A DNA stretch of 64,000 bases from Squalus acanthias (taxonomy: Eukaryota). Positions 901-56,000 of the stretch are shown here, piece after piece (positions within the stretch are counted from its first letter, which is position 1; every line of letters starts with the position of its first letter). The stretch is from positions 118,050,001 through 118,114,000 of the forward strand of contig CM059431.1 in the NCBI GenBank assembly GCA_030390025.1, written 5' to 3'. A model generated the notes under the pieces. The model saw only the letters and a list, made by a program, of their open reading frames with translations. It was not told the DNA's origin and did not search any database. A program made the position numbers and the translations under genes.

Positions 901-1132
901 TCTCGCGTGTTCAGCCACTCCTCAAAGTATCACAGCCCAAATTCACTTTTCAAAAAACTCCCACCACTTCTTGTAGCTGCAATGCACCTGCCCTTTGAGA
1001 GATGCAGGGTGTCTTTAAGTAACGTTAGCCACTCGCAATATCAGGACTCCTGCTGATGCGTGCAGCCAATGAACAGTATGGGTAACGCTGGCTGCACGCT
1101 GCAATCATTTAAAACAGTAGGCCGCACAAATT

Positions 1133-1227
1133 CTGATGAAAGGTCTTCGACCTGAAACGTTAACTCTGTTTCTCTCTCCACGGATGCTGCCTGGCCTGCT
1201 GAGTTTTTCCAGCGTTTTCTGTTGTTA
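1133..1227 (+). mobile_element. 95-bp Penelope-like 3'-end insertion consisting of hammerhead core plus tail
   Basis: Near-identical to array positions 13456-13550 (CTGATGAAAGGTCTTCGACCTGAAACGTTAACTC...TTCTGTTGTTA). Flanked by the 9-bp direct repeat GCACAAATT (1124-1132 and 1228-1236). Confidence 0.9.
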
Positions 1228-12010: not shown

Positions 12011-12334
12011 GCCCTGTTACCACTTCCTTAATAATGAGTGGAGATAGCCAGGTCAGGATAATGAAGCTATCTAAAACTTAGCTCCTTCAGTTTGATACAA
12101 TATTGCATTGCACAGAGTCAAAATCAAGCAAAGCAGCAGCAAAGAGTTACATCATTTAAAATAAAGTCAATTTATTTATACAACTAAGTTTGACATTGTG
12201 TATTAATAAAGAAGCAAGTTTTCAAAAGTAAGAATTAAGCAAAATTCATTCTTCTTCATTCATTCATGGTAAATTTCCAAAACATTCATTAAAAATCTTA
12301 CAGTCTCCCGCCCCTTCATAATACTTTATGGGTG

Positions 12335-12619
12335 GAAACAAATAATTTGCTGGAGCGGAACAGCTATAATTATGGGGGATTTTAACTACCATATTAACTG
12401 GACAAATCAAATTGGGCAGGGCAGCCTTGAGGAAGAGTTTATTGAGTGTCTTAGGGATGGATTTCTTGAGCAGTATGTAACTGATCCTACAAGGGGGCAA
12501 GCAACCTTGGACCTGGTCCTGTGTAATGAGTCAGGATTAATTAATAATGTCCTAGTTAAGGATCCCCTTGGAATGAGTGACCATAACATGATTGAATTCC
12601 ATATCCAATTAGAGGGTGA
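12335..12619 (+). mobile_element. CR1 ORF2 endonuclease segment (5' part of the LINE interrupted by the PLE array)
   Basis: MGDFN..., PTRGQATLDLVLCN and SDHNMIEF are APE motifs. The sequence continues at 23157 after the target-site duplication. Confidence 0.9.
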
Positions 12620-12622
12620 TCC

Positions 12623-13172
12623 CCTCCAGCATGATCCCACCACCAAACACATCTTCCCCTCACCTCCCCTTTCAGCATTCCGTAGGGACCGCTCCCTCCG
12701 CGACACCCTAGTCCACTCCTCTACCACCCCCAGCACCCCTTCCCCTTCGCCCGGCACCTTCCCGTGCACGCGCAGGAGATGCAACACATGCCCTTATACC
12801 TCCCCTCTTCCCACTGTCCAGGGCCCCAAACACCCCTTCCAGGTGAAACAGCGATTTACTTGTACTTCCTGCAATTTAGTATACTGTATTCGCTGCTCAC
12901 GATGTGGACTCCTCTACATTGGGGAGACCAAACGCAGATTGGGTGACCGCTTTGCGGAACACCTCCGTTCAGTCCGTAAGGGGGACCCCGAGCTCCCGGT
13001 GGCCTGTCACTTTAATTCACCGCTTCACTCCCACTCTGACCTCACCGTCCTCGGCCTATTACACTGTTCCACGGAAGCTTAGCGTAAGCTCGAGGAACAG
13101 CACCTCATCTTTCGTTTAGGCACGCTACAGCCCTCTGGACTCAATATCGAGTTCAACAATTTTAGATCATAA
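12623..13172 (+). pseudogene. 5'-truncated PLE ORF end (Cys-knuckle plus GIY-YIG) with premature stop
   Basis: Nearly identical to the C-terminus of the 971-aa ORFs, but with CAG>TAG at 13080-13082. Confidence 0.9.
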
Positions 13173-13451
13173 CCTCAGCTCCAATCACATTTATATTTTA
13201 TTTTATCCACCCTTTTATTTGTCCCCCCCCACCTTTTTTTTTCCCTCCTAGAAGCTGGCAGCTGTCCTTCATTCTGCCAGTGGATTTCACACTTCATTCA
13301 GCCTTAATCTGTCACATTAACACCACCTCTAGCCTTGCATATCTCTTAATGTCTCTTAATGTCTCTTCATCTCCCCCTTTGTTCCTTTATCCCCTCCCCC
13401 TTTTCCCAGCTTTACTCTGGCCTTAAATCTATTTGATTTCCGGCTCTTCCC

Positions 13452-13488
13452 AGTTCTGATGAAAGGTCATCGACCTGAAACGTTAACT
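13452..13488 (+). ncRNA. Minimal type-I hammerhead ribozyme (array copy 1)
   Basis: AGTT-CTGATGA-A-AGGTC(ATC)GACCT-GAAAC-GTT-AACT: stem I AGTT/AACT, stem II AGGTC/GACCT, palindromic AACGTT helix III; predicted cleavage after 13484. Confidence 0.85.
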
Positions 13489-16374
13489 CTCTTTCTCTCT
13501 CCACGGATGCTGCCTGGCCTGCTGAGTTTTTCCAGCGTTTTCTGTTGTTATATCGTATTTCCAGCATCCGCAGTATTTTGCTATCGTATTAGTGTTTGGT
13601 TCACTGCCACCTTTCTTCTTGGAATGCCTACCTTGAAGAAGTTCTGCTCTTCTCTTCGACGGGATTTCCGTTTGGCTCTTCAACCTTGTTCATCTTCATT
13701 GATTTCAGTTTCCCTTCTCGTGTTTGATCAGGTATCTGCCAAGACTCGGTTTCACAGCCACATTACTTTCCTCAGCAACTGTCTCCGGTTCCGACTTATC
13801 CCACGTGGATTCCAACTAAACTTCCACCCTTCGTGTTTCGGATCCACCCAGGATTACAAATATCTCCAAGATATTCATCGTTCCTCGAACTACTGCTCTC
13901 GCCGCATCTTGAGATCCACGCTCAACGCCATGCGGCGCCACATGAACACTCTCGACATCTCTCTTCAGCAGCACCGACGCACTCTATCTCAAAGCTGTCC
14001 GGGTCCACAGTTCCATTTCATCCTTAGACTCATCCGACGCTTCAACAAAAAACTTTTCTTCTTCCTTTCCGATGTCAAGGATCGCAAGCTTCAACAACTC
14101 TTGGACACTAAAGCCCCTCCGGAACCTTCTTCCCCTTCACTTTCCTCTGACCCCCCTTCTCCCAATCTCACCCCCTGCCGCGTTTTCACTATCCCCTCTG
14201 ACCTTCCCCTCTCTGACTCCGAACGATCAGTCCTCAGCAAAGGCCTGAGCTTCATCCCCTTACGCCCCCATCTCAATGAATTTCGAGCTCGGCACGATGC
14301 TGAGCTCTTTTTCCGCCGCCTCCGTCTCCGTGCCCACTTCTCTGGCCAGGAGTCTTCCCCCCGCACGGCTGACCCTTTCTCCCGCTTTCAGAATTCTCGT
14401 TCCACCTGGACCCCTCCCTCTGGCCTCTTACCCTCTCTTGATCTTTTCATTGCTAACTGCCGCCGTGACATCGGCCAGCTCAATTTCTCTGCTCCCCTCA
14501 CTCACTCCAACCTACCTCCCTCTGAACTTGCAGCACTCCATTCTCTCCGATCCAACCCTGACATTGTCATTAAACCTGCTGACAAGGGTGGCGCTGTTGT
14601 TGTTTGGCGAACCGACCTCTACCTAGCGGAAGTTGAACGCCAACTCTCTGACACCTCCTCCTACCTCCACCTGGACCATGACCCCACTACCGAACATCAA
14701 GCCACCGTGTCCAAGACTGTCACTGACCTCATCTCCTCTGGAGATCTTCCCCCCACGGCCGCCAACCTCATAGTTCCCCAACCCCGCACAGCCCGCTTCT
14801 ACCTCCTTCCCAAGATCCACAAACAGGACTGCCCTGGTAGACCCATCGTTTCAGCCTGTTCTTGCCCCACGGAACTTATCTCTTCCTATCTCGACTCTAT
14901 TTTTTCTCCCCTTGTCCAGTCTCTTCCCACCTACATCCGCGACTCTTCCGATGCCCTCCGCCATTTTAACAGTTTCCAGTTTCCCGGCCCCAACCGTCTC
15001 CTCTTCACTATGGACGTACAATCCCTCTACACCTCCATTCCCCACCAGGATGGCCTGAGGGCGCTCCGCTTCTTCCTTGAACAGTGGCCCAACCAGTCCC
15101 CATCCACCACCACCCTCCTCCGCCTGGCTGAACTTGTTCTCACATTGAACAACTTCTCCTTTGACTCTACCCATTTCCTCCAAATTAAAGGTGTTGCTAT
15201 GGGTACCCGCATGGGTCCTAGCTATGCCTGCCTTTTCGTGGGATATGTGGAACACTCTTTGTTCCAGTCCTACTCGGGTCCCCTCCCTCACCTCTTTTTC
15301 CGGTACATTGATGACTGTATCGGTGCCGTCTCCTGCTCTCGCCCTGAACTAGAACATTTCATTCACTATGCTTCCAATTTCCACCCTTCCCTCACCTTCA
15401 CATGGTCCATCTCCGACTCTTCCCTTCCCTTCCTCGACTTCTCCATCTCCATCTCTGGGGATAGGTTATTGACTAACATTCACTACAAGCCCACCGACTC
15501 CCACAGCTACCTGGACTACACTTCCTCCCACCCCGCCTCCTGTAAGGACTCTATTCCATTCTCCCAGTTTCTCCGTCTCCGCCGCATCTGCTCTGATGAT
15601 GCCACCTTCCATACCAGTGCTTCCGACATGTCTTCCTTTTTCCTCAACCGAGGATTCCCCTCTACCGTGGTCGACACGGCCCTCGACCGTGTCCGTTCTA
15701 TCTCCCGCACATCTGCCCTCACCCCTGCCCCTCCCTCCCGGAACCACGATAGGGTTCCCCTTGTCCTCACCTTTCACCCCACCAGCCTCCACATTCAACG
15801 GATCATCCTCCGCCATTTCCGCCACCTCCAGCGTGATCCCACCACCAAACACATCTTCCCCTCACCTCCCCTTTCAGCATTCCGTAGGGACCGCTCCCTC
15901 CGCGACACCCTAGTCCACTCCTCTACCACCCCCAGCACCCCTTCCCCTTCGCCCGGCACCTTCCCGTGCACGCGCAGGAGATGCAACACATGCCCTTATA
16001 CCTCCCCTCTTCCCACTGTCCAGGGCCCCAAACACCCCTTCCAGGTGAAACAGCGATTTACTTGTACTTCCTGCAATTTAGTATACTGTATTCGCTGCTC
16101 ACGATGTGGACTCCTCTACATTGGGGAGACCAAACGCAGATTGGGTGACCGCTTTGCGGAACACCTCCGTTCAGTCCGTAAGGGGGACCCCGAGCTCCCG
16201 GTGGCCTGTCACTTTAATTCACCGCTTCACTCCCACTCTGACCTCACCGTCCTCGGCCTATTACACTGTTCCACGGAAGCTCAGCGTAAGCTCGAGGAAC
16301 AGCACCTCATCTTTCGTTTAGGCACGCTACAGCCCTCTGGACTCAATATCGAGTTCAACAATTTTAGATCATAA
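13459..16374 (+). CDS. Penelope-like element polyprotein: reverse transcriptase, CxxxxCxxC knuckle and GIY-YIG endonuclease (true start probably downstream, e.g. 13624)
   Basis: Intact 971-aa ORF with KPADKG, FYLLPKIHK, GRPI, MDVQSLYTSI, GVAMG, RYIDD, LPFLD, CTRRRCNTC, VYCIRCSRCGLLYIGET and GLN motifs. Confidence 0.95.
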   Translation: MKGHRPETLTLFLSPRMLPGLLSFSSVFCCYIVFPASAVFCYRISVWFTATFLLGMPTLKKFCSSLRRDFRLALQPCSSSLISVSLLVFDQVSAKTRFHSHITFLSNCLRFRLIPRGFQLNFHPSCFGSTQDYKYLQDIHRSSNYCSRRILRSTLNAMRRHMNTLDISLQQHRRTLSQSCPGPQFHFILRLIRRFNKKLFFFLSDVKDRKLQQLLDTKAPPEPSSPSLSSDPPSPNLTPCRVFTIPSDLPLSDSERSVLSKGLSFIPLRPHLNEFRARHDAELFFRRLRLRAHFSGQESSPRTADPFSRFQNSRSTWTPPSGLLPSLDLFIANCRRDIGQLNFSAPLTHSNLPPSELAALHSLRSNPDIVIKPADKGGAVVVWRTDLYLAEVERQLSDTSSYLHLDHDPTTEHQATVSKTVTDLISSGDLPPTAANLIVPQPRTARFYLLPKIHKQDCPGRPIVSACSCPTELISSYLDSIFSPLVQSLPTYIRDSSDALRHFNSFQFPGPNRLLFTMDVQSLYTSIPHQDGLRALRFFLEQWPNQSPSTTTLLRLAELVLTLNNFSFDSTHFLQIKGVAMGTRMGPSYACLFVGYVEHSLFQSYSGPLPHLFFRYIDDCIGAVSCSRPELEHFIHYASNFHPSLTFTWSISDSSLPFLDFSISISGDRLLTNIHYKPTDSHSYLDYTSSHPASCKDSIPFSQFLRLRRICSDDATFHTSASDMSSFFLNRGFPSTVVDTALDRVRSISRTSALTPAPPSRNHDRVPLVLTFHPTSLHIQRIILRHFRHLQRDPTTKHIFPSPPLSAFRRDRSLRDTLVHSSTTPSTPSPSPGTFPCTRRRCNTCPYTSPLPTVQGPKHPFQVKQRFTCTSCNLVYCIRCSRCGLLYIGETKRRLGDRFAEHLRSVRKGDPELPVACHFNSPLHSHSDLTVLGLLHCSTEAQRKLEEQHLIFRLGTLQPSGLNIEFNNFRS

Positions 16375-16653
16375 CCTCAGCTCCAATCACATTTATATTT
16401 TATTTTATCCACCCTTTTATTTGTCCCCCCCCACCTTTTTTTTTCCCTCCTAGAAGCTGGCAGCTGTCCTTCATTCTGCCAGTGGATTTCACACTTCATT
16501 CAGCCTTAATCTGTCACATTAACACCACCTCTAGCCTTGCATATCTCTTAATGTCTCTTAATGTCTCTTCATCTCCCCCTTTGTTCCTTTATCCCCTCCC
16601 CCTTTTCCCAGCTTTACCCTGGCCTTAAATCTATTTGATTTCCGGCTCTTCCC

Positions 16654-16690
16654 AGTTCTGATGAAAGGTCATCGACCTGAAACGTTAACT
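16654..16690 (+). ncRNA. Minimal type-I hammerhead ribozyme (array copy 2)
   Basis: Identical to 13452-13488. Confidence 0.85.
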
Positions 16691-19576
16691 CTCTTTCTCT
16701 CTCCACGGATGCTGCCTGGCCTGCTGAGTTTTTCCAGCGTTTTCTGTTGTTATATCGTATTTCCAGCATCCGCAGTATTTTGCTATCGTATTAGTGTTTG
16801 GTTCACTGCCACCTTTCTTCTTGGAATGCCTACCTTGAAGAAGTTCTGCTCTTCTCTTCGACGGGATTTCCGTTTGGCTCTTCAACCTTGTTCATCTTCA
16901 TTGATTTCAGTTTCCCTTCTCGTGTTTGATCAGGTATCTGCCAAGACTCGGTTTCACAGCCACATTACTTTCCTCAGCAACTGTCTCCGGTTCCGACTTA
17001 TCCCACGTGGATTCCAACAAAACTTCCACCCTTCGTGTTTCGGATCCACCCAGGATTACAAATATCTCCAAGATATTCATCGTTCCTCGAACTACTGCTC
17101 TCGCCGCATCTTGAGATCCACGCTCAACGCCATGCGGCGCCACATGAACACTCTCGACATCTCTCTTCAGCAGCACCGACGCACTCTATCTCAAAGCTGT
17201 CCGGGTCCACAGTTCCATTTCATCCTTAGACTCATCCGACGCTTCAACAAAAAACTTTTCTTCTTCCTTTCCGATGTCAAGGATCGCAAGCTTCAACAAC
17301 TCTTGGACACTAAAGCCCCTCCGGAACCTTCTTCCCCTTCACTTTCCTCTGACCCCCCTTCTCCCAATCTCACCCCCTGCCGCGTTTTCACTATCCCCTC
17401 TGACCTTCCCCTCTCTGACTCCGAACGATCAGTCCTCAGCAAAGGCCTGAGCTTCATCCCCTTACGCCCCCATCTCAATGAATTTCGAGCTCGGCACGAT
17501 GCTGAGCTCTTTTTCCGCCGCCTCCGTCTCCGTGCCCACTTCTCTGGCCAGGAGTCTTCCCCCCGCACGGCTGACCCTTTCTCCCGCTTTCAGAATTCTC
17601 GTTCCACCTGGACCCCTCCCCCTGGCCTCTTACCCTCTCTTGATCTTTTCATTGCTAACTGCCGCCGTGACATCGGCCAGCTCAATTTCTCTGCTCCCCT
17701 CACTCACTCCAACCTACCTCCCTCTGAACTTGCAGCACTCCATTCTCTCCGATCCAACCCTGACATTGTCATTAAACCTGCTGACAAGGGTGGCGCTGTT
17801 GTTGTTTGGCGAACCGACCTCTACCTAGCGGAAGTTGAACGCCAACTCTCTGACACCTCCTCCTACCTCCACCTGGACCATGACCCCACTACCGAACATC
17901 AAGCCACCGTGTCCAAGACTGTCACTGACCTCATCTCCTCTGGAGATCTTCCCCCCACGGCCGCCAACCTCATAGTTCCCCAACCCCGCACAGCCCGCTT
18001 CTACCTCCTTCCCAAGATCCACAAACAGGACTGCCCCGGTAGACCCATCGTTTCAGCCTGTTCTTGCCCCACGGAACTTATCTCTTCCTATCTCGACTCT
18101 ATTTTTTCTCCCCTTGTCCAGTCTCTTCCCACCTACATCCGCGACTCTTCCGATGCCCTCCGCCATTTTAACAGTTTCCAGTTTCCCGGCCCCAACCGTC
18201 TCCTCTTCACTATGGACGTACAATCCCTCTACACCTCCATTCCCCACCAGGATGGCCTGAGGGCGCTCCGCTTCTTCCTTGAACAGAGGCCCAACCAGTC
18301 CCCATCCACCACCACCCTCCTCCGCCTGGCTGAACTTGTTCTCACATTGAACAACTTCTCCTTTGACTCTACCCATTTCCTCCAAATTAAAGGTGTTGCT
18401 ATGGGTACCCGCATGGGTCCTAGCTATGCCTGCCTTTTCGTGGGATATGTGGAACACTCTTTGTTCCAGTCCTACTCGGGTCCCCTCCCTCACCTCTTTT
18501 TCCGGTACATTGATGACTGTATCGGTGCCGTCTCCTGCTCTCGCCCTGAACTAGAACATTTCATTCACTATGCTTCCAATTTCCACCCTTCCCTCACCTT
18601 CACATGGTCCATCTCCGACTCTTCCCTTCCCTTCCTCGACTTCTCCATCTCCATCTCTGGGGATAGGTTATTGACTAACATTCACTACAAGCCCACCGAC
18701 TCCCACAGCTACCTGGACTACACTTCCTCCCACCCCGCCTCCTGTAAGGACTCTATTCCATTCTCCCAGTTTCTCCGTCTCCGCCGCATCTGCTCTGATG
18801 ATGCCACCTTCCATACCAGTGCTTCCGACATGTCTTCCTTTTTCCTCAACCGAGGATTCCCCTCTACCGTGGTCGACACGGCCCTCGACCGTGTCCGTTC
18901 TATCTCCCGCACATCTGCCCTCACCCCTGCCCCTCCCTCCCGGAACCACGATAGGGTTCCCCTTGTCCTCACCTTTCACCCCACCAGCCTCCACATTCAA
19001 CGGATCATCCTCCGCCATTTCCGCCACCTCCAGCGTGATCCCACCACCAAACACATCTTCCCCTCACCTCCCCTTTCAGCATTCCGTAGGGACCGCTCCC
19101 TCCGCGACACCCTAGTCCACTCCTCTACCACCCCCAGCACCCCTTCCCCTTCGCCCGGCACCTTCCCGTGCACGCGCAGGAGATGCAACACATGCCCTTA
19201 TACCTCCCCTCTTCCCACTGTCCAGGGCCCCAAACACCCCTTCCAGGTGAAACAGCGATTTACTTGTACTTCCTGCAATTTAGTATACTGTATTCGCTGC
19301 TCACGATGTGGACTCCTCTACATTGGGGAGACCAAACGCAGATTGGGTGACCGCTTTGCGGAACACCTCCGTTCAGTCCGTAAGGGGGACCCCGAGCTCC
19401 CGGTGGCCTGTCACTTTAATTCACCGCTTCACTCCCACTCTGACCTCACCGTCCTCGGCCTATTACACTGTTCCACGGAAGCTCAGCGTAAGCTCGAGGA
19501 ACAGCACCTCATCTTTCGTTTAGGCACGCTACAGCCCTCTGGACTCAATATCGAGTTCAACAATTTTAGATCATAA
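16661..19576 (+). CDS. Penelope-like RT/GIY-YIG polyprotein (unit 2)
   Basis: Intact 971-aa ORF; 3 amino-acid differences from unit 1 seen (L>Q, S>P, W>R). Confidence 0.95.
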   Translation: MKGHRPETLTLFLSPRMLPGLLSFSSVFCCYIVFPASAVFCYRISVWFTATFLLGMPTLKKFCSSLRRDFRLALQPCSSSLISVSLLVFDQVSAKTRFHSHITFLSNCLRFRLIPRGFQQNFHPSCFGSTQDYKYLQDIHRSSNYCSRRILRSTLNAMRRHMNTLDISLQQHRRTLSQSCPGPQFHFILRLIRRFNKKLFFFLSDVKDRKLQQLLDTKAPPEPSSPSLSSDPPSPNLTPCRVFTIPSDLPLSDSERSVLSKGLSFIPLRPHLNEFRARHDAELFFRRLRLRAHFSGQESSPRTADPFSRFQNSRSTWTPPPGLLPSLDLFIANCRRDIGQLNFSAPLTHSNLPPSELAALHSLRSNPDIVIKPADKGGAVVVWRTDLYLAEVERQLSDTSSYLHLDHDPTTEHQATVSKTVTDLISSGDLPPTAANLIVPQPRTARFYLLPKIHKQDCPGRPIVSACSCPTELISSYLDSIFSPLVQSLPTYIRDSSDALRHFNSFQFPGPNRLLFTMDVQSLYTSIPHQDGLRALRFFLEQRPNQSPSTTTLLRLAELVLTLNNFSFDSTHFLQIKGVAMGTRMGPSYACLFVGYVEHSLFQSYSGPLPHLFFRYIDDCIGAVSCSRPELEHFIHYASNFHPSLTFTWSISDSSLPFLDFSISISGDRLLTNIHYKPTDSHSYLDYTSSHPASCKDSIPFSQFLRLRRICSDDATFHTSASDMSSFFLNRGFPSTVVDTALDRVRSISRTSALTPAPPSRNHDRVPLVLTFHPTSLHIQRIILRHFRHLQRDPTTKHIFPSPPLSAFRRDRSLRDTLVHSSTTPSTPSPSPGTFPCTRRRCNTCPYTSPLPTVQGPKHPFQVKQRFTCTSCNLVYCIRCSRCGLLYIGETKRRLGDRFAEHLRSVRKGDPELPVACHFNSPLHSHSDLTVLGLLHCSTEAQRKLEEQHLIFRLGTLQPSGLNIEFNNFRS

Positions 19577-19855
19577 CCTCAGCTCCAATCACATTTATAT
19601 TTTATTTTATCCACCCTTTTATTTGTCCCCCCCCACCTTTTTTTTTCCCTCCTAGAAGCTGGCAGCTGTCCTTCATTCTGCCAGTGGATTTCACACTTCA
19701 TTCAGCCTTAATCTGTCACATTAACACCACCTCTAGCCTTGCATATCTCTTAATGTCTCTTAATGTCTCTTCATCTCCCCCTTTGTTCCTTTATCCCCTC
19801 CCCCTTTTCCCAGCTTTACCCTGGCCTTAAATCTATTTGATTTCCGGCTCTTCCC

Positions 19856-19892
19856 AGTTCTGATGAAAGGTCATCGACCTGAAACGTTAACT
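19856..19892 (+). ncRNA. Minimal type-I hammerhead ribozyme (array copy 3)
   Basis: Identical to 13452-13488. Confidence 0.85.
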
Positions 19893-22778
19893 CTCTTTCT
19901 CTCTCCACGGATGCTGCCTGGCCTGCTGAGTTTTTCCAGCGTTTTCTGTTGTTATATCGTATTTCCAGCATCCGCAGTATTTTGCTATCGTATTAGTGTT
20001 TGGTTCACTGCCACCTTTCTTCTTGGAATGCCTACCTTGAAGAAGTTCTGCTCTTCTCTTCGACGGGATTTCCGTTTGGCTCTTCAACCTTGTTCATCTT
20101 CATTGATTTCAGTTTCCCTTCTCGTGTTTGATCAGGTATCTGCCAAGACTCGGTTTCACAGCCACATTACTTTCCTCAGCAACTGTCTCCGGTTCCGACT
20201 TATCCCACGTGGATTCCAACAAAACTTCCACCCTTCGTGTTTCGGATCCACCCAGGATTACAAATATCTCCAAGATATTCATCGTTCCTCGAACTACTGC
20301 TCTCGCCGCATCTTGAGATCCACGCTCAACGCCATGCGGCGCCACATGAACACTCTCGACATCTCTCTTCAGCAGCACCGACGCACTCTATCTCAAAGCT
20401 GTCCGGGTCCACAGTTCCATTTCATCCTTAGACTCATCCGACGCTTCAACAAAAAACTTTTCTTCTTCCTTTCCGATGTCAAGGATCGCAAGCTTCAACA
20501 ACTCTTGGACACTAAAGCCCCTCCGGAACCTTCTTCCCCTTCACTTTCCTCTGACCCCCCTTCTCCCAATCTCACCCCCTGCCGCGTTTTCACTATCCCC
20601 TCTGACCTTCCCCTCTCTGACTCCGAACGATCAGTCCTCAGCAAAGGCCTGAGCTTCATCCCCTTACGCCCCCATCTCAATGAATTTCGAGCTCGGCACG
20701 ATGCTGAGCTCTTTTTCCGCCGCCTCCGTCTCCGTGCCCACTTCTCTGGCCAGGAGTCTTCCCCCCGCACGGCTGACCCTTTCTCCCGCTTTCAGAATTC
20801 TCGTTCCACCTGGACCCCTCCCCCTGGCCTCTTACCCTCTCTTGATCTTTTCATTGCTAACTGCCGCCGTGACATCGGCCAGCTCAATTTCTCTGCTCCC
20901 CTCACTCACTCCAACCTACCTCCCTCTGAACTTGCAGCACTCCATTCTCTCCGATCCAACCCTGACATTGTCATTAAACCTGCTGACAAGGGTGGCGCTG
21001 TTGTTGTTTGGCGAACCGACCTCTACCTAGCGGAAGTTGAACGCCAACTCTCTGACACCTCCTCCTACCTCCACCTGGACCATGACCCCACTACCGAACA
21101 TCAAGCCACCGTGTCCAAGACTGTCACTGACCTCATCTCCTCTGGAGATCTTCCCCCCACGGCCGCCAACCTCATAGTTCCCCAACCCCGCACAGCCCGC
21201 TTCTACCTCCTTCCCAAGATCCACAAACAGGACTGCCCTGGTAGACCCATCGTTTCAGCCTGTTCTTGCCCCACGGAACTTATCTCTTCCTATCTCGACT
21301 CTATTTTTTCTCCCCTTGTCCAGTCTCTTCCCACCTACATCCGCGACTCTTCCGATGCCCTCCGCCATTTTAACAGTTTCCAGTTTCCCGGCCCCAACCG
21401 TCTCCTCTTCACTATGGACGTACAATCCCTCTACACCTCCATTCCCCACCAGGATGGCCTGAGGGCGCTCCGCTTCTTCCTTGAACAGTGGCCCAACCAG
21501 TCCCCATCCACCACCACCCTCCTCCGCCTGGCTGAACTTGTTCTCACATTGAACAACTTCTCCTTTGACTCTACCCATTTCCTCCAAATTAAAGGTGTTG
21601 CTATGGGTACCCGCGTGGGTCCTAGCTATGTCTGCCTTTTCGTGGGATATGTGGAACACTCTTTGTTCCAGTCCTACTCGGGTCCCCTCCCTCACCTCTT
21701 TTTCCGGTACATTGATGACTGTATCGGTGCCGTCTCCTGCTCTCGCCCTGAACTAGAACATTTCATTCACTATGCTTCCAATTTCCACCCTTCCCATACC
21801 TTCACATGGTCCATCTCCGACTCTTCCCTTCCCTTCCTCGACTTCTCCATCTCCATCTCTGGGGATAGGTTATTGACTAACATTCACTACAAGCCCACCG
21901 ACTCCCACAGCTACCTGGACTACACTTCCTCCCACCCCGCCTCCTGTAAGGACTCTATTCCATTCTCCCAGTTTCTCCGTCTCCGCCGCATCTGCTCTGA
22001 TGATGCCACCTTCCATACCAGTGCTTCCGACATGTCTTCCTTTTTCCTCAACCGAGGATTCCCCTCTACCGTGGTCGACACGGCCCTCGACCGTGTCCGT
22101 TCTATCTCCCGCACATCTGCCCTCACCCCTGCCCCTCCCTCCCGGAACCACGATAGGGTTCCCCTTGTCCTCACCTTTCACCCCACCAGCCTCCACATTC
22201 AACGGATCATCCTCCGCCATTTCCGCCACCTCCAGCGTGATCCCACCACCAAACACATCTTCCCCTCACCTCCCCTTTCAGCATTCCGTAGGGACCGCTC
22301 CCTCCGCGACACCCTAGTCCACTCCTCTACCACCCCCAGCACCCCTTCCCCTTCGCCCGGCACCTTCCCGTGCACGCGCAGGAGATGCAACACATGCCCT
22401 TATACCTCCCCTCTTCCCACTGTCCAGGGCCCCAAACACCCCTTCCAGGTGAAACAGCGATTTACTTGTACTTCCTGCAATTTAGTATACTGTATTCGCT
22501 GCTCACGATGTGGACTCCTCTACATTGGGGAGACCAAACGCAGATTGGGTGACCGCTTTGCGGAACACCTCCGTTCAGTCCGTAAGGGGGACCCCGAGCT
22601 CCCGGTGGCCTGTCACTTTAATTCACCGCTTCACTCCCACTCTGACCTCACCGTCCTCGGCCTATTACACTGTTCCACAGAAGCTCAGCGTAAGCTCGAG
22701 GAACAGCACCTCATCTTTCGTTTAGGCACGCTACAGCCCTCTGGACTCAATATCGAGTTCAACAATTTCAGATCATAA
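19863..22778 (+). CDS. Penelope-like RT/GIY-YIG polyprotein (unit 3)
   Basis: Intact 971-aa ORF with private changes TRVGPSYVC and PSHTF. Confidence 0.95.
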   Translation: MKGHRPETLTLFLSPRMLPGLLSFSSVFCCYIVFPASAVFCYRISVWFTATFLLGMPTLKKFCSSLRRDFRLALQPCSSSLISVSLLVFDQVSAKTRFHSHITFLSNCLRFRLIPRGFQQNFHPSCFGSTQDYKYLQDIHRSSNYCSRRILRSTLNAMRRHMNTLDISLQQHRRTLSQSCPGPQFHFILRLIRRFNKKLFFFLSDVKDRKLQQLLDTKAPPEPSSPSLSSDPPSPNLTPCRVFTIPSDLPLSDSERSVLSKGLSFIPLRPHLNEFRARHDAELFFRRLRLRAHFSGQESSPRTADPFSRFQNSRSTWTPPPGLLPSLDLFIANCRRDIGQLNFSAPLTHSNLPPSELAALHSLRSNPDIVIKPADKGGAVVVWRTDLYLAEVERQLSDTSSYLHLDHDPTTEHQATVSKTVTDLISSGDLPPTAANLIVPQPRTARFYLLPKIHKQDCPGRPIVSACSCPTELISSYLDSIFSPLVQSLPTYIRDSSDALRHFNSFQFPGPNRLLFTMDVQSLYTSIPHQDGLRALRFFLEQWPNQSPSTTTLLRLAELVLTLNNFSFDSTHFLQIKGVAMGTRVGPSYVCLFVGYVEHSLFQSYSGPLPHLFFRYIDDCIGAVSCSRPELEHFIHYASNFHPSHTFTWSISDSSLPFLDFSISISGDRLLTNIHYKPTDSHSYLDYTSSHPASCKDSIPFSQFLRLRRICSDDATFHTSASDMSSFFLNRGFPSTVVDTALDRVRSISRTSALTPAPPSRNHDRVPLVLTFHPTSLHIQRIILRHFRHLQRDPTTKHIFPSPPLSAFRRDRSLRDTLVHSSTTPSTPSPSPGTFPCTRRRCNTCPYTSPLPTVQGPKHPFQVKQRFTCTSCNLVYCIRCSRCGLLYIGETKRRLGDRFAEHLRSVRKGDPELPVACHFNSPLHSHSDLTVLGLLHCSTEAQRKLEEQHLIFRLGTLQPSGLNIEFNNFRS

Positions 22779-23057
22779 CCTCAGCTCCAATCACATTTAT
22801 ATTTTATTTTATCCACCCTTTTATTTGTCCCCCCCCACCTTTTTTTTTCCCTCCTAGAAGCTGGCAGCTGTCCTTCATTCTGCCAGTGGATTTCACACTT
22901 CATTCAGCCTTAATCTGTCACATTAACACCACCTCTAGCCTTGCATATCTCTTAATGTCTCTTAATGTCTCTTCAACTCCCCCTTTGTTCCTTTATCCCC
23001 TCCCCCTTTTCCCAGCTTTACCCTGGCCTTAAATCTATTTGATTTCCGGCTCTTCCC

Positions 23058-23094
23058 GGTTCTGATGAAAGGTCATCGACCTGAAACGTTAACT
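23058..23094 (+). ncRNA. Minimal type-I hammerhead ribozyme (array copy 4, terminal)
   Basis: GGTT-CTGATGAAAGGTCATCGACCTGAAACGTT-AACT; the A>G change in stem I leaves a G-U pair. Confidence 0.83.
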
Positions 23095-23156
23095 CTCTTT
23101 CTCTCTCCACGGATGCTGCCTGGCCTGCTGAGTTTTTCCAGCGTTTTCTGTTGTTA

Positions 23157-25509
23157 TAGAGGGTGAGAAGGTTGCTTCTCAAACAAGCATACTGAGCTTG
23201 AATAAAGGAGACTATGATGGTATGAGAGCAGAATTGATTAAAGTGGACTGGGAAAATAGATTAAAGGGTAAGACGGTACATGAGCAGTGGTGTTCATTCA
23301 AGGAGTTATTTTACAACTTTCAAAATAAATATATTCCACTGAGGAAAAAAGAAATGACAGCCATCCATGGCTAAGTAAAGAAATTAAAGAAAGTCTCCAA
23401 CTAAAAACAAGAACATATAAGGTAGCCAAAGTTAGTGGGAGGATAGAGGATTGGGAAGTCTTCAAAAGACAACAAAAAGTAACAAAAGGATTGATTAAGA
23501 AAGGGAAAATAGACTATGAAAATAAATTAGCAAAAAATATAAAAACAGATAGCAAGAGTTTCTATAGTTATATTAAAAGAAAAAGGGTGGTTAAGGCAAA
23601 CGTAGGTCCATTAGAGGATGAGACCGGGAAATTAATGGTGGGAAACATGGAGATGGCAAAAATGCTGAACAAATATTTTGTTTCAGTCTTTACGGTATAG
23701 GACACTAAGAATATCCCAACACTGGACAAACAGGGGGCTCTAGTGGGGGAGGAGCTAAATACGATTAAAATCACTAAGGAATTGGTACTCAGTAAAATAA
23801 TGGGACTCAAGGCGGATAAATCCCCTGGACCTGATGGCTTACATCCTAGGGTCTTGAGGGAAGTGGCAGTAGGAATTGTGGATGCTTTGGTAATAATTTT
23901 CCAAAACTCCCTGAACTCAGCAAAGGTCCCGGCAGATTGAAAAACTGCTAATGTAACACCCTTATTGAAAAAGGGTTGTAGGCAGAAGGCTGGAAATTAT
24001 AGACCAGTTAGCCTAACATCTGTGGTGGGTAAAATTTTGGAGTCTATTATTAAGGAGACAGTAACGGAACATTTAGATAAACATAATTTAATAGGACAAA
24101 GTCAGCATGGCTTTATGAAGGGGAAGTCATGTCTGACAAATTTGCTCGAGTTCTTTGAGGACATAATGTACAGGGTGGATAAAGGGGAACCAGTGGATGT
24201 AGTGTATTTAGACTTCCAGAAGGCATTCGACAAGGTGCCACATAAAAGATTATTACTCAAGATAAAAAATCACTGGATTGGGGGTAATATTCTGGCATGG
24301 GTGGAGGATTGGTTATCTAACAGGAAGCAGAGAGTTGGGATAAATGGTTCATTCTCGGACTGGCAACCAGTAGCCAGTGGTGTTCCGCAGGGGTCGGTGC
24401 TGGGTCCCCAACTCTTTACAATCTATATAAACGATTTGGAGGAGGGGACCGAGTTTAACATATCAAAGTTTGCAGATGATACAAAGATGGGAGGGAAAGT
24501 AGAGAGTGAGGAGGACATAAAAAACCTACAAGGGGATATAGACAGGTTGGGTGAGTGGGCAGAGATTTGGCAGATGCAATACAATATTGGAAAATGTGAG
24601 GTTATGCACTTTGGCAGGAAAAATCAGAGAGCAAGTTATTATCTTAATGGCGAGAAACTGGAAAGTACTGCAGTACAAAGGGATCTGGGGGTCTTGGTGC
24701 AAGAAAATCAAAAAGTTAGTATGCAGGTGCAGCAGGTGATCAAGAAAGCCAATGGAATGTTGGCTTTTATTGCTAGGGGGATAGAATATAAAAACAGGGA
24801 GGTATTGCTGCAGTTGTATAGGGTATTGGTGAGACCGCACCTGGAATACTGCATACAGTTTTGGTGTCCATACTTAAGAAAAGACATACTTGCTCTCGAG
24901 GCAGTACAAAGAAGGTTCACTCAGTTCATTCTGGGGTTGAGGGGATGGACATACGACGAGAGGATAAGTAGATTGGGACTCTACTCATTGGAGTTCAGAA
25001 GAATGAGAGGCGATCTTATTGAAACATATAAGATTGTGAAGGGGCTTGATCGGGTGAACGCAGTGAGGATGTTCCCAAGGATGGGTGAAACTAGAACTAG
25101 GGGACATAATCTTAGAATAAGGGGCTGCTCTTTCAAAACTGAGATGAGGAGAAACTTTTTCACTCAGAGGGTAGTGGGTCTGTGGAATTTGCTACCCCAG
25201 GAAGCTGTGGAAGCTACTTCATTAAATAAATTTAAAACAGAAATAGGCAGTTTCCTAGAAGTAAAGGGAATTAGGGGTTACGGGGAGCGGGCTGGAAATT
25301 GGACATGAGTTTGAGTTCGGATCGGTCAAGGCCCTGTGGGTGGCGGAGCGGGCCCAGGGGCCGAGTGGCCTGGTCCTGCTCCTACTTCTTGTGTTCTTTA
25401 GAGTTGAGGTTGGATCAGATCAGCCATGATCTCATTGAATGGCGGAGCAGGCTCGAGGGGCCGATTGGTCTGCTCCTGCTCCTATTTCTTATGTTCTTAT
25501 GTTCTTATG
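23157..25509 (+). mobile_element. CR1 LINE ORF2 (RT) and 3' UTR, continuation of 12335-12619
   Basis: 447-aa RT ORF 23965-25308 (NYRPVSLTS, LDFQKAFDKV, GVPQGSVLGP, FADD) with upstream stops at ~23698 and ~23938; (TTCTTATG)n tail at ~25487-25509. Confidence 0.95.
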
Positions 25510-27409: not shown

Positions 27410-30169
27410 TGTCGCATCCTGAGTTCCACGCTCAACGCTATGAGCCGCCACATGCACTCTCTCGACCTCTCTCTTCAGCAGCATCGATTCACTCTATCCC
27501 AAAGCTGTCCTGGTCCACAGTTCCATTTCACCTTTCGCCTCATCCGGTGGTTTAACAAAAACTTTTTTTCTTCCTTTCAGGTGTCAAGGAACCTACTTCC
27601 CCTTCACTTTCCTCTGACCCCATCCCATCTTCCAATCTCACCCCCTGCCATGTTTTCATTATCCCCTCTGACCTTCCCCTCTTGGACCCTGAACGATCAG
27701 TCCTCAGCAAAGGCCTCAGCTTCATCCCCTTACACCCCCACCTCAATGAATTTCGAGCTCGGCACGATGCTGAGCTCTTTTACCATTGCCTTTGTCTCTG
27801 TGCCCACTTCTTTGGCCAGGAGACTTCCCTCCGCACAGTAGACCTTTTCTCGATTTCAGAATTCTCGTTCTACCTGGACCCCTCCCCCTGGCCTCTTACC
27901 CTCTCTAGAACTTTTCATTGCTAACTGCCGGCGTGACATCGGCCATCTCCAGTTCTCTGCTCCCCTCACTCACTCCAACCTACCTCCATCTGAACTTGCA
28001 GCACTCCATTCTCTCAGATCCATCTCCAACATTGTTATTAAACCTGCTGACAAGGGTGGCGCTGTTGTTGTTTGGCAAACCGACCGCTACCTTGCAGAGG
28101 CTGAACGCCAACTCTCTGACACCTACTCCTACCTCCCCCTTGACCATGACCCCACTACCGAACATCAAGCCAACATTTCCAAGACTGTCACTGACCTCAT
28201 TTCCTCTGGAGATCTTACCTCCACGGCCACCAACCTCATAGTCCCCAATCCCGCACAATCCGCTTCTACTCCTTCCCAAGATCCACAAACAGGACTGCCC
28301 TGGTAGACCCATCATTTCAGCCTGTTCTTGCCCCATGGAACTATTTTCTTCCTAGCTCAACTCTATTTTTTCTCTCCTTGTTCAGTTTCTTCCCACCTAC
28401 ATCCGTGACTCTTCCGACACCCTCCACCAATTTAACAGTTTCCTGTTTCCTTCCCCAACTGTCTCCTTTTCACCATGGGCATCCAATCCCTCTACACCTC
28501 TATCCCCTACCAGGACAGCCCCACTTCTTCCTTGAACAGAGGCCCAACCTGTCCCCCTCCACCACCACCCTCCTCTGCGTGGCTGAACTTGTTATCACGT
28601 TGAACAATTTCTCCTTTGACTCCACTCACTTCCTCCAAATAAAAGGTGTTGCTATGGGAACCTGCATGGGTCCTAGCTATGCCTGCTTTTTCGTAGGATA
28701 TGTGGAACATTCTTTGTTCCAGACCTACTCATGTCCTCTCCCTCACCTCTTTTTCCATTACATTGATGACTGTATCAGTGCCGTTTCCTGCTCTCGCCCT
28801 GAACTGGAAAATTTCATTCACTTTGCTTCCAATTTCCACGCTTCCCTCACCTTCACATGGTCCATCTTCGAATCTTCTCTTCCCTTCCTTGGCTTCTCTG
28901 TCTCCATTTCTGGGGATAGGCTATTGACAAACATCCACTATAAGCTCACTGACTCCCACAGCTACCTGGACTACACTTCTTCCCACTTCACTTCCTGTAA
29001 GGACTCTATTCTATTCTCCCAATTTCTCCATCTCCTTCCCATCTGTTCTGACAATGCTACTTTCTATACTAGTGCTTCCGATATGTCTTCCTTTTTCCTC
29101 AATCGAGGATTCCCCTCTACCATAGTTAACATGGACCTCGACTGTGTCCATTCCATTTCCCGCACTTCTGCTCTCACCCCTTCCCCTCCCTCCCAGAACC
29201 ACGCTAGGGTTCCCCTTGTCCTCACCTTGCATTCTACCAGCCTTCACATTCAACAGATCATCTCCACTATTTCCACCATCTCCAGCGTGATCACACCACC
29301 AAACACATCTTCCCCTCCCCTCCCCTTTCAGCATTCTGAAGGGACCGCTCCCTTCATGACACCCTGGTCCACTCCTCAGTCACCTCCATTACCCCCTCCC
29401 CTTTCCACAGCACCTTCCCGTGCAAGTACAGGAGATGCAACACCTGCCTTTTTACCTCCTCCCTTCCCACTGTCCAGAGCCCCAAACACTCCTTCCAGGT
29501 GAAACAGTGATTTACTTGTACTTCTTGCAATTTAGTATACTGTATTCGCTGCTCACGATGAGGTCTCCTCTACATTGGGGAGACCAAAGGCAGATTGGGT
29601 GTCCGCTTTGCAGAACACCTCCATTCAGTTTGCAAGTGTGACCTCGTGCTTCTGGTCACCTGTCACTTTAATTCTCCGCTCCACTCCCACTCTGACCTCT
29701 CTGTTCTCGGTCTCTTACACAGTTCCAATGAAGCTCAATGTAAGCTCAAGGAACAGCACCTCATCTTTCGATTAAGCAATTTACAGCCTTCTGGACTCAA
29801 CATTGAGTTCAACAATTTCAGACCATAATCTCTGCCCCTATTTTTTCAGATGGCTGCTGTTGATGATTTCCATTCACACCTCTTCTAGACCCATCTTTTG
29901 TTTCTTTACTTGTCCCATTACCATCTCCTTATGCTTTATACAAACTTTTGTCATTTAAACACTCCTGCCTTCCACCCTATCACAGACCTTCCCTTTAGTT
30001 CTTTCCTCCCTTCCCCACTTTCCCTGCCCCTGCACTTGCTTAAAATCTGTTACATCTCTAACTTTTCTCGTTCTGATGAAAGGTCATCGACCTGAAACGT
30101 TAACTCTGTTTCTCTCTCCACAGAGGCTGCCTGACCTGCTGAGTATTTCCAGCATTTTCTGTTTTTATT
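27410..30169 (+). mobile_element. Older, degenerate near-full-length Penelope-like element with hammerhead tail
   Basis: Frameshifted homolog of the 971-aa ORF. Hammerhead at ~30069-30105. Flanked by TTAATATTATGGTA (27396-27409) and TTAATGTTATGGTA (30170-30183). Confidence 0.93.
30069..30105 (+). ncRNA. Hammerhead ribozyme motif of the degenerate PLE
   Basis: GTT-CTGATGAAAGGTCATCGACCTGAAACGTT-AAC; the core is identical to the array copies. Confidence 0.78.
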
Positions 30170-46718: not shown

Positions 46719-48229
46719 GGAAATAACAACAGAAAACGCTGGAAAAACTCAGCAGGCCAGGCAGCATCCGTGGAGAGAGAAACAGAATTAACGTTTCAGG
46801 TCGAAGACCTTTCGTCAGAACTGGAAAAAAGCAGGAAATGGAATAGATTTTAAAGCAAGTTTAGGGACTGGGAAAAGGGGGAGGGGATGAAAGAACAAAA
46901 GGGAAGGTCAGTGATAGGATAGAAAGCAGGAGAGATTAAGAGACATTGAGAGACATTGAGAGACATTAAGAGATATTCAAGACAAGAGGAGGTGGTAATG
47001 GGACAGGTTAAGGAACAAAGGATGGCTCTCGATGAAGTGTGAATTGCGCTGGCAGAATGAAGGACAGCTGCCATGTGGGAGGGAAGATAAAAGGCCAAAC
47101 AAAAAGTGATAGGGGCCGAGGTTATGATCTGAAATTGTTGAACTCTATGTTGAGTCCAGAGGGCTGAAGAGTGCCTAATCGAAAGATGAGGTGCTGTTCC
47201 TCGAGCTTACGCTGAGCTTCCGTGGAACAATGCAAGAGGCCGAGGACAGTGAGGTCAGAGTGGGAATGGAGCGGTGAATTAAAGTGACAGGCCACCGGGA
47301 GCTCGGGGTCCCCCTTACGGACTGAACGGAGGTGTTCCGCAAAGCGGTCACCCAATCTACGTTTGGTCTCTCCAATGTAGAGGAGACCACATCGTGAGCA
47401 GCAAATACAGTATACTAAATTGCAAGAAGTACAAGTAAACCGCTGTTTCACCTGGAAGAGGTGTTTGGGGCCCTGGGCAGTGGGAAGGGGGGAGGTATAA
47501 GGGCATGTGTTGCATCTCCTGCGCTTGCACGGGAAGGTGCTGGGCGAAGGGGAAGGGGTGCTGGGGGTGGTAGAGGAGTGGATAAGGGTGTCGCGGAGGG
47601 AGCAGTCCCTACGGAATGCTGAAAGGGGAGGTGAGGGGAAGATGCGTTTGGTGGTGGGATCACGCTGGAGGTGGTGGAAATGGCAGAGGATGATCCGTTG
47701 AATGTGGAGGATGGTGAGGTGAAAGGTGAGGACAAGGGGAACTCTATCGTGGTTCCGGGAGGGAGGGGCAAGGGTGAGGGCAGAAGTGCGGGAGATAGAA
47801 CGGACACGGTCGAGGGCCGTGTCAACCACAGTAGAGGGGAATCCTCAGTTGAGGAAAAAGGAAGACATGTCAGAAGCAGTGGTATGGAAGGTGGCATCGT
47901 CAGAGCAGATGCGGCGGAGACGGAGAAACTGGGAGAATGGAATAGAGTCCTTACAAGAGGCGGGGTGGGAGGAAGCGTAGACCAGGTAGCTGTGGGAGTC
48001 AGTGGGCTTGTAATGAATGTTTGTCAATAATCTATCCCTAGAGATGGAGACGGAGAAGTCGAGGAAGGGAAGGGAAGAGTCGGAGATGGACCATGTGAAG
48101 GTGAGGGAAGGGTGGAAATTGGAAGCAATGTGAATGAAATTTTCTAGTTCAGGTTGAGAGGCAGGAGACGGCACCGATACAGTCATCAATGTATCGGAAA
48201 AAGAGGTGAGGGAGGGGACCCGAGTAGAC
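46719..48229 (-). mobile_element. 5'-truncated Penelope-like element with hammerhead tail
   Basis: ORF 47122-47829 encodes the GIY-YIG. Hammerhead at 46786-46822. 12-bp TSD TAGTACATTATG (46707-46718, 48230-48241). Confidence 0.95.
46786..46822 (-). ncRNA. Hammerhead ribozyme motif
   Basis: Reverse complement: AGTT-CTGACGA-A-AGGTC(TTC)GACCT-GAAACGTT-AATT. Confidence 0.8.
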
Positions 48230-48354
48230 TAGTACATTATGAGCTATGCGCCAGGACTCCTATTAAGACCAGAGAAGAGATTACAATCTTTCAATATTTC
48301 TAGGTGCGTGGATCCAACTAAACATCTTAATATCTGTCTCCTGACTAGTTTGAC

Positions 48355-55097: not shown

Positions 55098-56000
55098 TTT
55101 AAACTATCAGACCTTTAATTGTGTTGATCTTTCCTTGGAGCTCCGGGGCCTAGAAATTCGAGGTCTTACCGCTGGCCGTTAAGGCCCATTTCGGGGAAAA
55201 AAATTGCAGACCCACACTTCTGCCCGTTGTGCCGTGTTTCGTGGCAGCTGCAATTTTCGGCACGTTGGCAGCGCTGCCGTTGCCTGTGCTCGCCGAAAGT
55301 ATTGTAATTAGTCACAGCATGATGCCAATTGGCCTGCAACGCCAAGTTGACACCCGCTCATCCATTTTGGATATCGCTACTCCTCTTGCCGCCCTCTCCA
55401 AAGCACCCCCGTGCGTGCAGCCACTAAAAGCGCTTCGGCAGTGTAAACAGCCATAAGGACCCTTCAACTGACAAATGTAAGAGAGCCAGGACTATTATTT
55501 CCATATAGCAGCGTTTATATTAATCACAAGCCTAGGTCCTGAGAGCTAACCCTTGAGATTTGTAGGTAAAGATTAATTTTTTTTTCGGTGATTTGCTTAT
55601 TTGAAATAGTCCTGCCTGAGTTAGCAATACTGAATGTAACAAATGGGAAGATGCAGAATATTGCAAGTGTTTACTTCTGAGTGACTAGAAGAGTAAGCCT
55701 GAGGTTTGGATTAGGAATCACCTACAGATGTTCAGTGTTTTGATCACTGAAATCTGAAGTGTGAATTCAAATTCTTTAAGTTATCAGATATGAGTACTCT
55801 GTCCTCAGCATGGAATAGTAAAAAGGTCTCAGTTGTCGGACCCTCCTAAGCCAGTGACTAAAGTTACCTCAGCATATCAATGAAATTATCACTACAGTAT
55901 AATGGTTTCAAAAACTGCAAAGTGCTGGATTTGATTGTTTCTGTCCTATAGATTTTTCTTCCTGCTTGATGAAAACTTAAATAATCATTTAAAATAAAGA

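What the first reader, a model, noticed from the sequence alone, without database searches (positions are those of the whole stretch)
13452..13488. Minimal hammerhead with palindromic helix III (AACGUU), predicted to work only as a dimer
Seen: the core CUGAUGA...GAAA is followed directly by CGUU, leaving no room for an intramolecular helix III loop; GAAACGUU contains the self-complementary AACGUU. Known: minimal type-I hammerheads of PLEs and retrozymes cleave as dimers through a palindromic helix III. Inference: only transcripts holding two copies (tandem units) would cleave efficiently, which would explain the tandem architecture. An extra A after CUGAUGA, an A-U pair closing stem II and a GUU triplet are non-canonical features.
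Basis: partly seen in the sequence, partly recalled or inferred. Interest (0 to 1): 0.75.

Follow-up and report, generated by a model that had tools for sequence, protein, structure and literature searches.

The report
Penelope retroelement minimal hammerhead ribozyme
This is a real, intact copy of the small self-cutting RNA motif that Penelope-like jumping genes are already known to carry, one of tens of thousands in a shark-like genome; it can probably cut only in pairs, but that does not explain why the element sits in tandem.

Summary
Observation confirmed. 13452-13488 is a complete minimal type-I hammerhead (min-HHR) in the pseudo-LTR of a young Penelope-like element (PLE; RT plus C-terminal GIY-YIG, Neptune-type linker). 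It recurs four times in a 3202-bp tandem array, and 46,689 exact pattern matches lie in the genome. This motif class, with palindromic helix III and dimer model, is published (PMC4209133). The extra A and GUU are normal for it; the A-U closing pair is a listed minority form. Common variants fall only at tolerated positions, which suggests selection for the fold. Dimer-only cleavage is plausible but untested. 'Dimers explain the tandems' is not supported: PLEs lacking canonical hammerheads form the same tandems, and most copies here are solo. Insertions read through the cut site: 0 of 134 sampled copies start there. Instead 21 of 92 copies start at the first bases of helix I. The scan saw this motif and that pile-up earlier in other shark-like genomes. 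Known kind, low interest. The open question is whether an RNA circle made by the ribozyme templates the more-than-unit insertions.

The parts
13452..13488 (+). Minimal type-I hammerhead (min-HHR), copy 1; predicted cut after 13484; palindromic helix III half ACGT at 13480-13483
16654..16690 (+). min-HHR copy 2, identical to copy 1 and 3202 nt downstream: the possible partner in one transcript
19856..19892 (+). min-HHR copy 3, identical
23058..23094 (+). min-HHR copy 4; the outermost helix I pair is G-U instead of A-U
12623..23156 (+). Head-to-tail array of a Penelope-like element, period 3202, about 3.3 units, units 99.7-99.9% identical. Starts with a 5'-truncated partial unit (in-frame stop near 13080) and ends 66 nt past the last predicted cut site
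13360..16374 (+). Open frame of unit 1 (1004 aa stop to stop): DKG at 14581, RT YIDD at 15301, CX4CxxC linker at 15967, GIY-YIG-type endonuclease from 16072. In-frame ATGs at 13459 (inside the hammerhead core, 26 nt before the cut), 13507 and 13624
16562..19576 (+). Open frame of unit 2
19764..22778 (+). Open frame of unit 3
13548..13594 (+). PLE 'tail': the two zones where genomic copies end, about +64..+72 and +100..+110 from the cut site; inferred internal start sites of reverse transcription
   Evidence: PMC11167929
12610..12619 (+). Left copy of the 10-bp target-site duplication TAGAGGGTGA
23157..23166 (+). Right copy of the target-site duplication; the array interrupts an older LINE remnant (RVT_1 frame at 23941-25308)
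1129..1227 (+). Solo mini-copy (hammerhead plus tail) that starts at the edge of helix I
27413..30168 (+). Older, broken copy of the same PLE family with its min-HHR at 30069-30105
46720..48236 (-). 5'-truncated copy with min-HHR starting at 46822
55997..57332 (-). 5'-truncated older-subfamily copy with min-HHR starting at 56135 (G-U closing pair of helix II)

Best explanation
The motif is the standard minimal hammerhead in the pseudo-LTR of an endonuclease-positive Penelope-like retrotransposon (probably Neptune clade) in a cartilaginous-fish genome. Shown: the anatomy, the place in the pLTR, the huge copy number, and variation confined to tolerated positions. Inferred: alone it cannot close helix III and folds into an inactive form. 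Two copies (3.2 kb apart in one transcript, or on two RNAs) can pair through ACGU to give a double hammerhead that cuts after GUU weakly and probably only with help from the element's own protein. Also inferred: the cut linear RNA is not the template for new insertions. The reverse transcriptase starts internally about 67 or 104 nt downstream of the cut site and reads through an intact junction. Cleavage would therefore be a side branch (RNA turnover, regulation, or circularisation) and not the cause of the tandem layout.
For: Anatomy matches the published consensus. The protein has RVT_1 and GIY-YIG matches (both below Pfam cut-offs), DKG and the CX2-5CxxC linker; the named top homologues come from Chiloscyllium, Rhincodon and Mobula at 67-73% identity. 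Among 92 copies picked by a downstream anchor, the only hammerhead positions with a variant at 15% or more are N7, 10.1 (A/G against U) and two loop-II bases: 4 of 4 in the 7 tolerated of 37 positions, p about 5e-4 (the tolerated set is my choice). ViennaRNA puts the active double hammerhead at -9.7 kcal/mol against -14.6 for two monomers and -19.3 for the best dimer, which fits the low activity reported for min-HHR dimers. 3' ends are bimodal, like the two internal RT start sites of the anole PLE. 81 of 92 copies extend at least 4 nt upstream of the cut; 0 of 92 and 0 of 42 start at it. Genome-wide, 109 matches fit a 5' end at the cut site (about 520 after correction), against 1,813 (about 6,300) for ends at -33/-32.
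Against: No cleavage was measured, and no raw RNA reads were available (contigs only). Variation is almost all one-sided, with no common compensatory change (G-C at 10.1-11.1 in only 3 of 80). G8 is A in 8 of 55 copies (14.5%, just under my 15% threshold; fits CpG decay). In a 2026 preprint only 1 of 9 frog dimer constructs cleaved. Folding energies ignore tertiary contacts and magnesium. A cut and re-ligated circle would also show an intact junction, so read-through does not exclude a role of cleavage in making templates. The clade assignment rests on one motif, with no tree.
Confidence: 0.7

Rival explanations
1. Rolling-circle model. Two hammerheads in one transcript cut out a 3202-nt monomer, a host ligase closes it, and the reverse transcriptase starts internally and runs round the circle. 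This gives seamless more-than-unit insertions such as this array, so the ribozyme would indeed cause the tandems (proposed in PMC4209133, unproven).
For: 21 of 42 ORF-start copies run on past the upstream hammerhead into the previous unit. In 27 young loci chosen for an intact pLTR-ORF junction, upstream ends scatter from -88 to beyond -1300 with no shared end apart from one triplet with the same flank. The junction bases at +68 and +72 are the family type in 27 of 27. The whole array lies between one target-site duplication. The fold appears to be under selection.
Against: Read-through transcripts of tandem loci or homology-guided template jumps give the same picture. PLEs lacking canonical hammerheads make the same tandems. 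Hammerhead mutants insert normally in vitro. The units of this array share derived alleles in a mosaic (two sites units 2+3, two sites units 1+3), which points to later recombination, conversion or assembly mixing, so the unit count is not clean evidence.
Confidence: 0.25
2. The motif is kept mainly for a non-catalytic role at the RNA's 5' end: a transcription start, a 3' splice site, or a protein-binding or RT-stop structure. Cleavage is negligible in vivo.
For: 21 of 92 copies have their 5' end at -34..-31, the first bases of helix I, where 3.5 are expected (p about 2e-11 for that window, chosen after seeing the data). A pyrimidine tract plus CAG precedes helix I in the subfamilies seen, and in D. 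virilis the intron ends at helix I. An extra G before the A was seen in 24 of 51 non-inverted, non-repeated rows (counted by eye; p 0.02-0.07), as a copied cap would give. No reads ended at the cut site in the anole.
Against: All catalytic core bases and the cleavable triplet are kept while neighbouring tolerated bases vary. Only 1 of 22 ORF-bearing copies that reach the upstream hammerhead stop at -33, so this is not the main mRNA start (the difference from short copies is not significant, p 0.22). None of the 21 copies has element sequence upstream, as a spliced exon would give. The extra G could also come from fold-back through helix I.
Confidence: 0.2
3. One reading: cleavage needs two copies in cis, and selection for this keeps the element in tandems.
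For: Helix III cannot form in one copy. The double hammerhead is a nested, possible structure. Published dimers and trimers cleave weakly while the monomer does not, and a review voices the same idea.
Against: At most about 4% of hammerhead matches are followed by this ORF start. Tandems exist without canonical hammerheads. The tandem is already explained by promoter supply and internal RT start. Trans pairing between RNAs is not excluded.
Confidence: 0.15

Closest known systems
Minimal hammerheads (min-HHR) in pLTRs of metazoan Penelope-like elements (Cervera and De la Pena 2014, PMC4209133)
   Same: Type I; core CUGANGA plus one extra base; no loop 3; palindromic 15.2-16.2; short helix I; U-rich upstream; located in pLTRs about 3 kb apart; mostly solo copies genome-wide; dimer model.
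   Different: Helix II closes with A-U or G-U rather than the consensus G-C. Copy number (at least 46,689) exceeds the roughly 4,000 and 9,000 reported for coelacanth and Xenopus. No shark row appears in the supplement text I could search (file 1 not searchable).
PAc (Poseidon of Anolis carolinensis) hammerhead and tail (Frangieh et al. 2024, PMC11167929)
   Same: Hammerhead at the pLTR-ORF junction; an in-frame ATG 26 nt before the cut site; two internal end points about 35 nt apart defining a tail; insertions made from uncut RNA.
   Different: Poseidon clade there; here the CX2-5CxxC linker of Neptune/Nematis. The ATG here lies inside the core and is ACG in 40 of 55 sampled copies. Protein-assisted cleavage was shown there and is untested here.
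Non-LTR retrozymes of animals (PMC7229834; bioRxiv 10.64898/2026.07.22.740005)
   Same: Type-I hammerheads in tandem units; vertebrate ones work better as dimers; reported in one chondrichthyan and linked to PLE pLTRs.
   Different: Retrozymes are non-coding units of about 170-400 nt with canonical type-I hammerheads and proven circles. This unit is an autonomous 3.2-kb element with open frames.

Membership tests
PLE minimal hammerhead (min-HHR) | Core CUGANGA...GAAA with NUH triplet | tested here: met
   CTGATGA 13456-62, GAAA 13477-80, GTT 13482-84
PLE minimal hammerhead (min-HHR) | One extra base between positions 9 and 10.1 | tested here: met
   A13463; A in 79 of 80 motifs
PLE minimal hammerhead (min-HHR) | No loop 3; palindromic 15.2-16.2 | tested here: met
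   CG in 74 of 80 motifs
PLE minimal hammerhead (min-HHR) | Helices I and II closed (type I) | tested here: met
   4-bp helix I, 5-bp helix II; helix II probability 0.92-0.97 in folds starting at 13452, 0.44 with 32 more nt upstream
PLE minimal hammerhead (min-HHR) | G10.1-C11.1 pair (consensus, not universal) | tested here: inconclusive
   A-U here, which departs from the consensus; A-U/G-U/G-C 49/25/3 of 80 in the family; published members with A-U exist
PLE minimal hammerhead (min-HHR) | Located in the pLTR of a PLE | tested here: met
   At each unit junction, just upstream of the RT-endonuclease body
PLE minimal hammerhead (min-HHR) | Self-cleavage as dimer, not as monomer | not testable with these tools
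   Needs an in vitro assay; only contigs were available for RNA
Rfam hammerhead families (e.g. Hammerhead_1) | Score at or above the gathering threshold | tested here: not met
   No match; not filed under an Rfam family
EN+ Penelope-like elements | Single ORF with RT and C-terminal GIY-YIG endonuclease | tested here: met
   RVT_1 E 5e-05 and GIY-YIG E 6.5e-04, both under Pfam cut-offs; DKG, YIDD and YIGET motifs; homologues carry PF00078 and some PF01541
EN+ Penelope-like elements | Partial tandems (pLTR), 5' truncation, adjacent inverted copies, 30-40 bp tail | tested here: met
Neptune clade | CX2-5CxxC zinc-finger-like linker between RT and EN (shared with Nematis) | tested here: met
   CTRRRCNTC at 15967; definition from PMC8557442
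Neptune clade | Placement in an RT tree with reference PLEs | not tested
   No named reference set was in hand
Non-LTR retrozyme | Non-coding unit of about 170-400 nt with canonical type-I hammerhead | tested here: not met
   Unit is 3202 bp with an open frame of about 1000 codons

The most novel reading that the evidence does not exclude
The insertion ends in this genome record the RNA life cycle of a young, autonomous PLE. Short RNAs begin, capped, at the very first base of the hammerhead and seed thousands of 100-140 bp copies. Full-length RNA is cut by the double hammerhead, closed to a 3.2-kb circle and reverse-transcribed as a rolling circle, giving seamless 1.x to 3.3-unit insertions. 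This would make the 2014 circle hypothesis for PLEs directly testable in a vertebrate with open frames and thousands of young copies.
Probability: 0.2. Interest if true: 0.6.

Novelty: new member of a known kind. Interest (0 to 1): 0.22.

Why it matters
The motif itself adds one more member to a described class. What the hammerhead does for Penelope-like elements is still open (stated in PMC8557442). This genome offers good material: open frames, at least 46,689 copies, and insertion ends that argue against cut linear RNA as the template and point to the first base of helix I as a functional boundary. One RNA experiment could decide between circle, regulation and non-catalytic roles.

Tried and rejected
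2) Expression and RNA ends: no RNA holder listed on record. Four contig sets were laid; they cannot show ends, strand or level, so nothing is concluded from the high depth over the pLTR. No splice joint ending at 13453 was among the 15 joints shown (17 not shown). 3) A joint 13726 to 13386 in two contig sets looked like a small circle or a retrozyme family; it matches one genomic deletion copy (L141) that is not a tandem array. Rejected as a family. 4) The array as proof of rolling-circle copying: a variant at +68..+72 is private to the three internal junctions (3 matches genome-wide), but mosaic shared alleles leave post-insertion recombination or assembly mixing open. Inconclusive. 5) Spliced templates as the cause of the -33 pile-up: 0 of 21 copies carry upstream element sequence. 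6) Cap-derived G: suggestive only and confounded by fold-back junctions. 7) Covariation in the predicted tail hairpin (+19..+86): not supported. 8) The control position -4 for the cut-site count was spoiled by recurrent transposon insertions. About 10 of 100 listed rows look like true ends, so a small (about twofold) excess at +1 is not excluded; 28 of 100 rows at +1 are fold-back junctions (counted by eye). 9) No solved-structure relative at E 0.01. 10) Lunse et al. (dimer cleavage of PLE hammerheads) is not held; I saw only its citation in PMC6765202. Sampling limits: one search used 80 regions around 90 of the 100 places listed, all from the start of contig C1. The pattern excludes long copies of the youngest subfamily, which inflates the share of short copies. 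In one search, with no such filter, 6 of 30 copies ended at -34..-31.

Full report
1. Observation. The sequence at 13452-13488 is as described: helix I arms AGTT/AACT, core CTGATGA, an extra A, a 5-bp helix II with a 3-nt loop, GAAA, then CG, T and the cleavable T at 13484. Only two bases separate A15.1 from U16.1, so helix III cannot close within one copy, and AACGTT is self-complementary. A full descriptor hits 8 places in the window, all in copies of one element, and none in 100 Markov controls. Rfam has no match.

2. What it belongs to. The motif marks each junction of a head-to-tail array with period 3202 (12623-23156). Three units have an open frame of 1004 codons with weak RVT_1 and GIY-YIG matches, DKG, YIDD and a CX4CxxC linker. 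This is an endonuclease-positive Penelope-like element. The linker is the mark of the Neptune and Nematis clades (PMC8557442, passages); Neptune is my inference, with no tree. The named best homologues are from sharks and rays. The array lies between two copies of a 10-bp target-site duplication inside an older LINE remnant. The 3.71-Gb assembly holds 46,689 exact matches to a family pattern, control 0, and 62,705 to a looser one, control 1,296. The ORF start has 2,076 matches with up to 3 mismatches, so most hammerheads are solo.

3. Is the fold selected? In 92 copies chosen by a downstream anchor that does not require the hammerhead, variants at 15% or more occur at N7, at 10.1 (A or G, both pairing with U) and at two loop-II bases, and nowhere else in the 37 nt (p about 5e-4 with my choice of 7 tolerated positions). 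G8 is A in 8 of 55, just below the threshold. Compensatory change is rare: G-C at 10.1-11.1 in 3 of 80. So selection for the hammerhead in the source lineages is likely but not shown by covariation.

4. Can it cut, and how? Nearest-neighbour folding gives the single copy an inactive fold in which core bases pair with the cleavage region. The active double hammerhead lies about 5 kcal/mol above two monomers and about 10 above the best dimer. This ignores tertiary contacts, but agrees with print. A Schistosoma min-HHR was inactive alone and weakly active as dimer or trimer (PMC4209133, parts 1-2 of 4 read). The anole PLE hammerhead cleaved only with the element's protein, its mutants did not affect insertion, and no RNA-seq reads ended at the cut (PMC11167929, parts 1-2 of 4). 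One of nine frog dimer constructs cleaved (bioRxiv 10.64898/2026.07.22.740005, parts 1-2 of 5 and passages; supplements closed, and they may name the chondrichthyan families).

5. What the insertion ends say. 3' ends cluster at about +64..+72 and +100..+110 from the cut: the PLE tail, matching two internal RT start sites. If cut linear RNA were copied, 5' ends would pile up at +1. They do not. 0 of 92 anchor-selected copies (upper 95% bound 3%) and 0 of 42 ORF-start copies begin there, and 81 of 92 extend 4 nt or more past it. Genome-wide, about 520 copies fit an end at +1, a quarter of them fold-back junctions, against about 6,300 at -33/-32. The matched control at -4 was spoiled by transposon insertions, so a small excess at +1 remains possible. 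Instead, 21 of 92 copies begin at -34..-31, the first bases of helix I (3.5 expected). By automatic scoring, 6 of these abut a target-site duplication and 6 an inverted copy. The sample is biased towards short copies; without that filter the share was 6 of 30. A capped RNA starting there (the context resembles an initiator, recalled consensus), an RT stop at the fold, or fold-back through helix I could each explain it. The extra-G test for a cap was only suggestive (24 of 51, p 0.02-0.07). Only 1 of 22 ORF-bearing copies that reach the upstream hammerhead stop there, so it is not the main mRNA start.

6. Do dimers explain the tandems? Not on this evidence. Naiad and most Chlamys PLEs lack canonical hammerheads and have the same partial tandems. 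The upstream pLTR supplies the promoter in Penelope (PMC2377424, passages). The circle model remains open: 21 of 42 ORF-start copies run seamlessly into the previous unit, with scattered ends, but read-through RNA predicts the same. The array itself is not a clean witness. It has a junction variant found only in its three internal junctions and mosaic shared alleles between units.

7. Comparison and novelty. The published min-HHR consensus (PMC4209133, supplement file 2, part 2 of 3; file 1 not searchable) covers the core, the extra base, the palindrome and the triplet; the A-U closing pair departs from the consensus but appears in listed members. A review states the dimer-and-tandem idea outright (PMC6765202, passages). 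Retrozymes differ in being short and non-coding (PMC7229834, passages). Searches for a paper on hammerheads of shark PLEs found none, though the 2026 preprint includes one chondrichthyan. I did not see the helix-I pile-up in the parts of papers I read. The scan's notes report this motif in several shark-like genomes and the same pile-up in another (seen after my own test).

8. Verdict. Real feature, known kind, new member. Interest 0.22. The boldest reading still open (capped mini-RNAs from helix I plus a ribozyme-made circle as template) has about 0.2 probability and would merit about 0.6.

Noticed in passing
L194:700-1450 (G000:C1:39162700-39164200), L195, L182-L193; listing: Short elements with terminal inverted repeats starting GGGCTGGATTTT or similar (746 bp in L194) sit exactly in the hammerhead's cleavage triplet, duplicating GTT (3 bp). 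About 90 of 100 listed rows of 619 matches look like this (counted by eye), so several hundred insertions hit one site. Both ends were seen in 2 of 6 loci checked. A 3-bp duplication with GGG ends recalls PIF/Harbinger MITEs (recalled, not tested).
   Followed up: partly
window 13551-13559, 16753-16761, 19955-19963: A two-base variant at the first tail end point makes these nine bases identical to the nine at the second end point (13583-13591). It occurs only in this array's three internal junctions genome-wide; possibly a template-switch scar.
   Followed up: partly
listings; e.g. G000:C1:33340462-33340517: Many inverted junctions join exactly through the two arms of helix I, as if the cDNA folds back on the ribozyme's own stem.
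   Followed up: partly
window 13430-13453: A pyrimidine tract ending in CAG directly before helix I, kept across subfamilies; it looks like a 3' splice site, as in D. virilis Penelope, or an initiator. No spliced copy was found.
   Followed up: partly
window 13459-13461: An in-frame ATG inside the catalytic core, 26 nt before the cut, as in the anole element; older subfamilies have ACG there.
   Followed up: partly
L141:1316-1680; L021:1429-2205; L149, L157: Internally deleted mini-units (about 290-390 bp) that join the ORF start to the 3' UTR, some carrying two hammerheads: possible raw material for retrozyme-like derivatives.
   Followed up: partly
(L144, L147, L150, L168, L178, L180): 6 of 42 ORF-start copies begin at +102..+111, the outer end of the tail.
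   Followed up: no
listing, rows with the flank AGTTCTTAAAGGGG: About 15 of 100 rows share one upstream flank: a hammerhead mini-copy apparently carried and amplified inside another repeat family.
   Followed up: no
window 10904-12016 (-), 12273-12609 and 23167-25308 (+): LINE remnants; the one interrupted by the array keeps an RVT_1 frame of 455 aa. CR1 type is recalled, not tested.
   Followed up: no
window 45245-45477: A 24/57-bp minisatellite.
   Followed up: no
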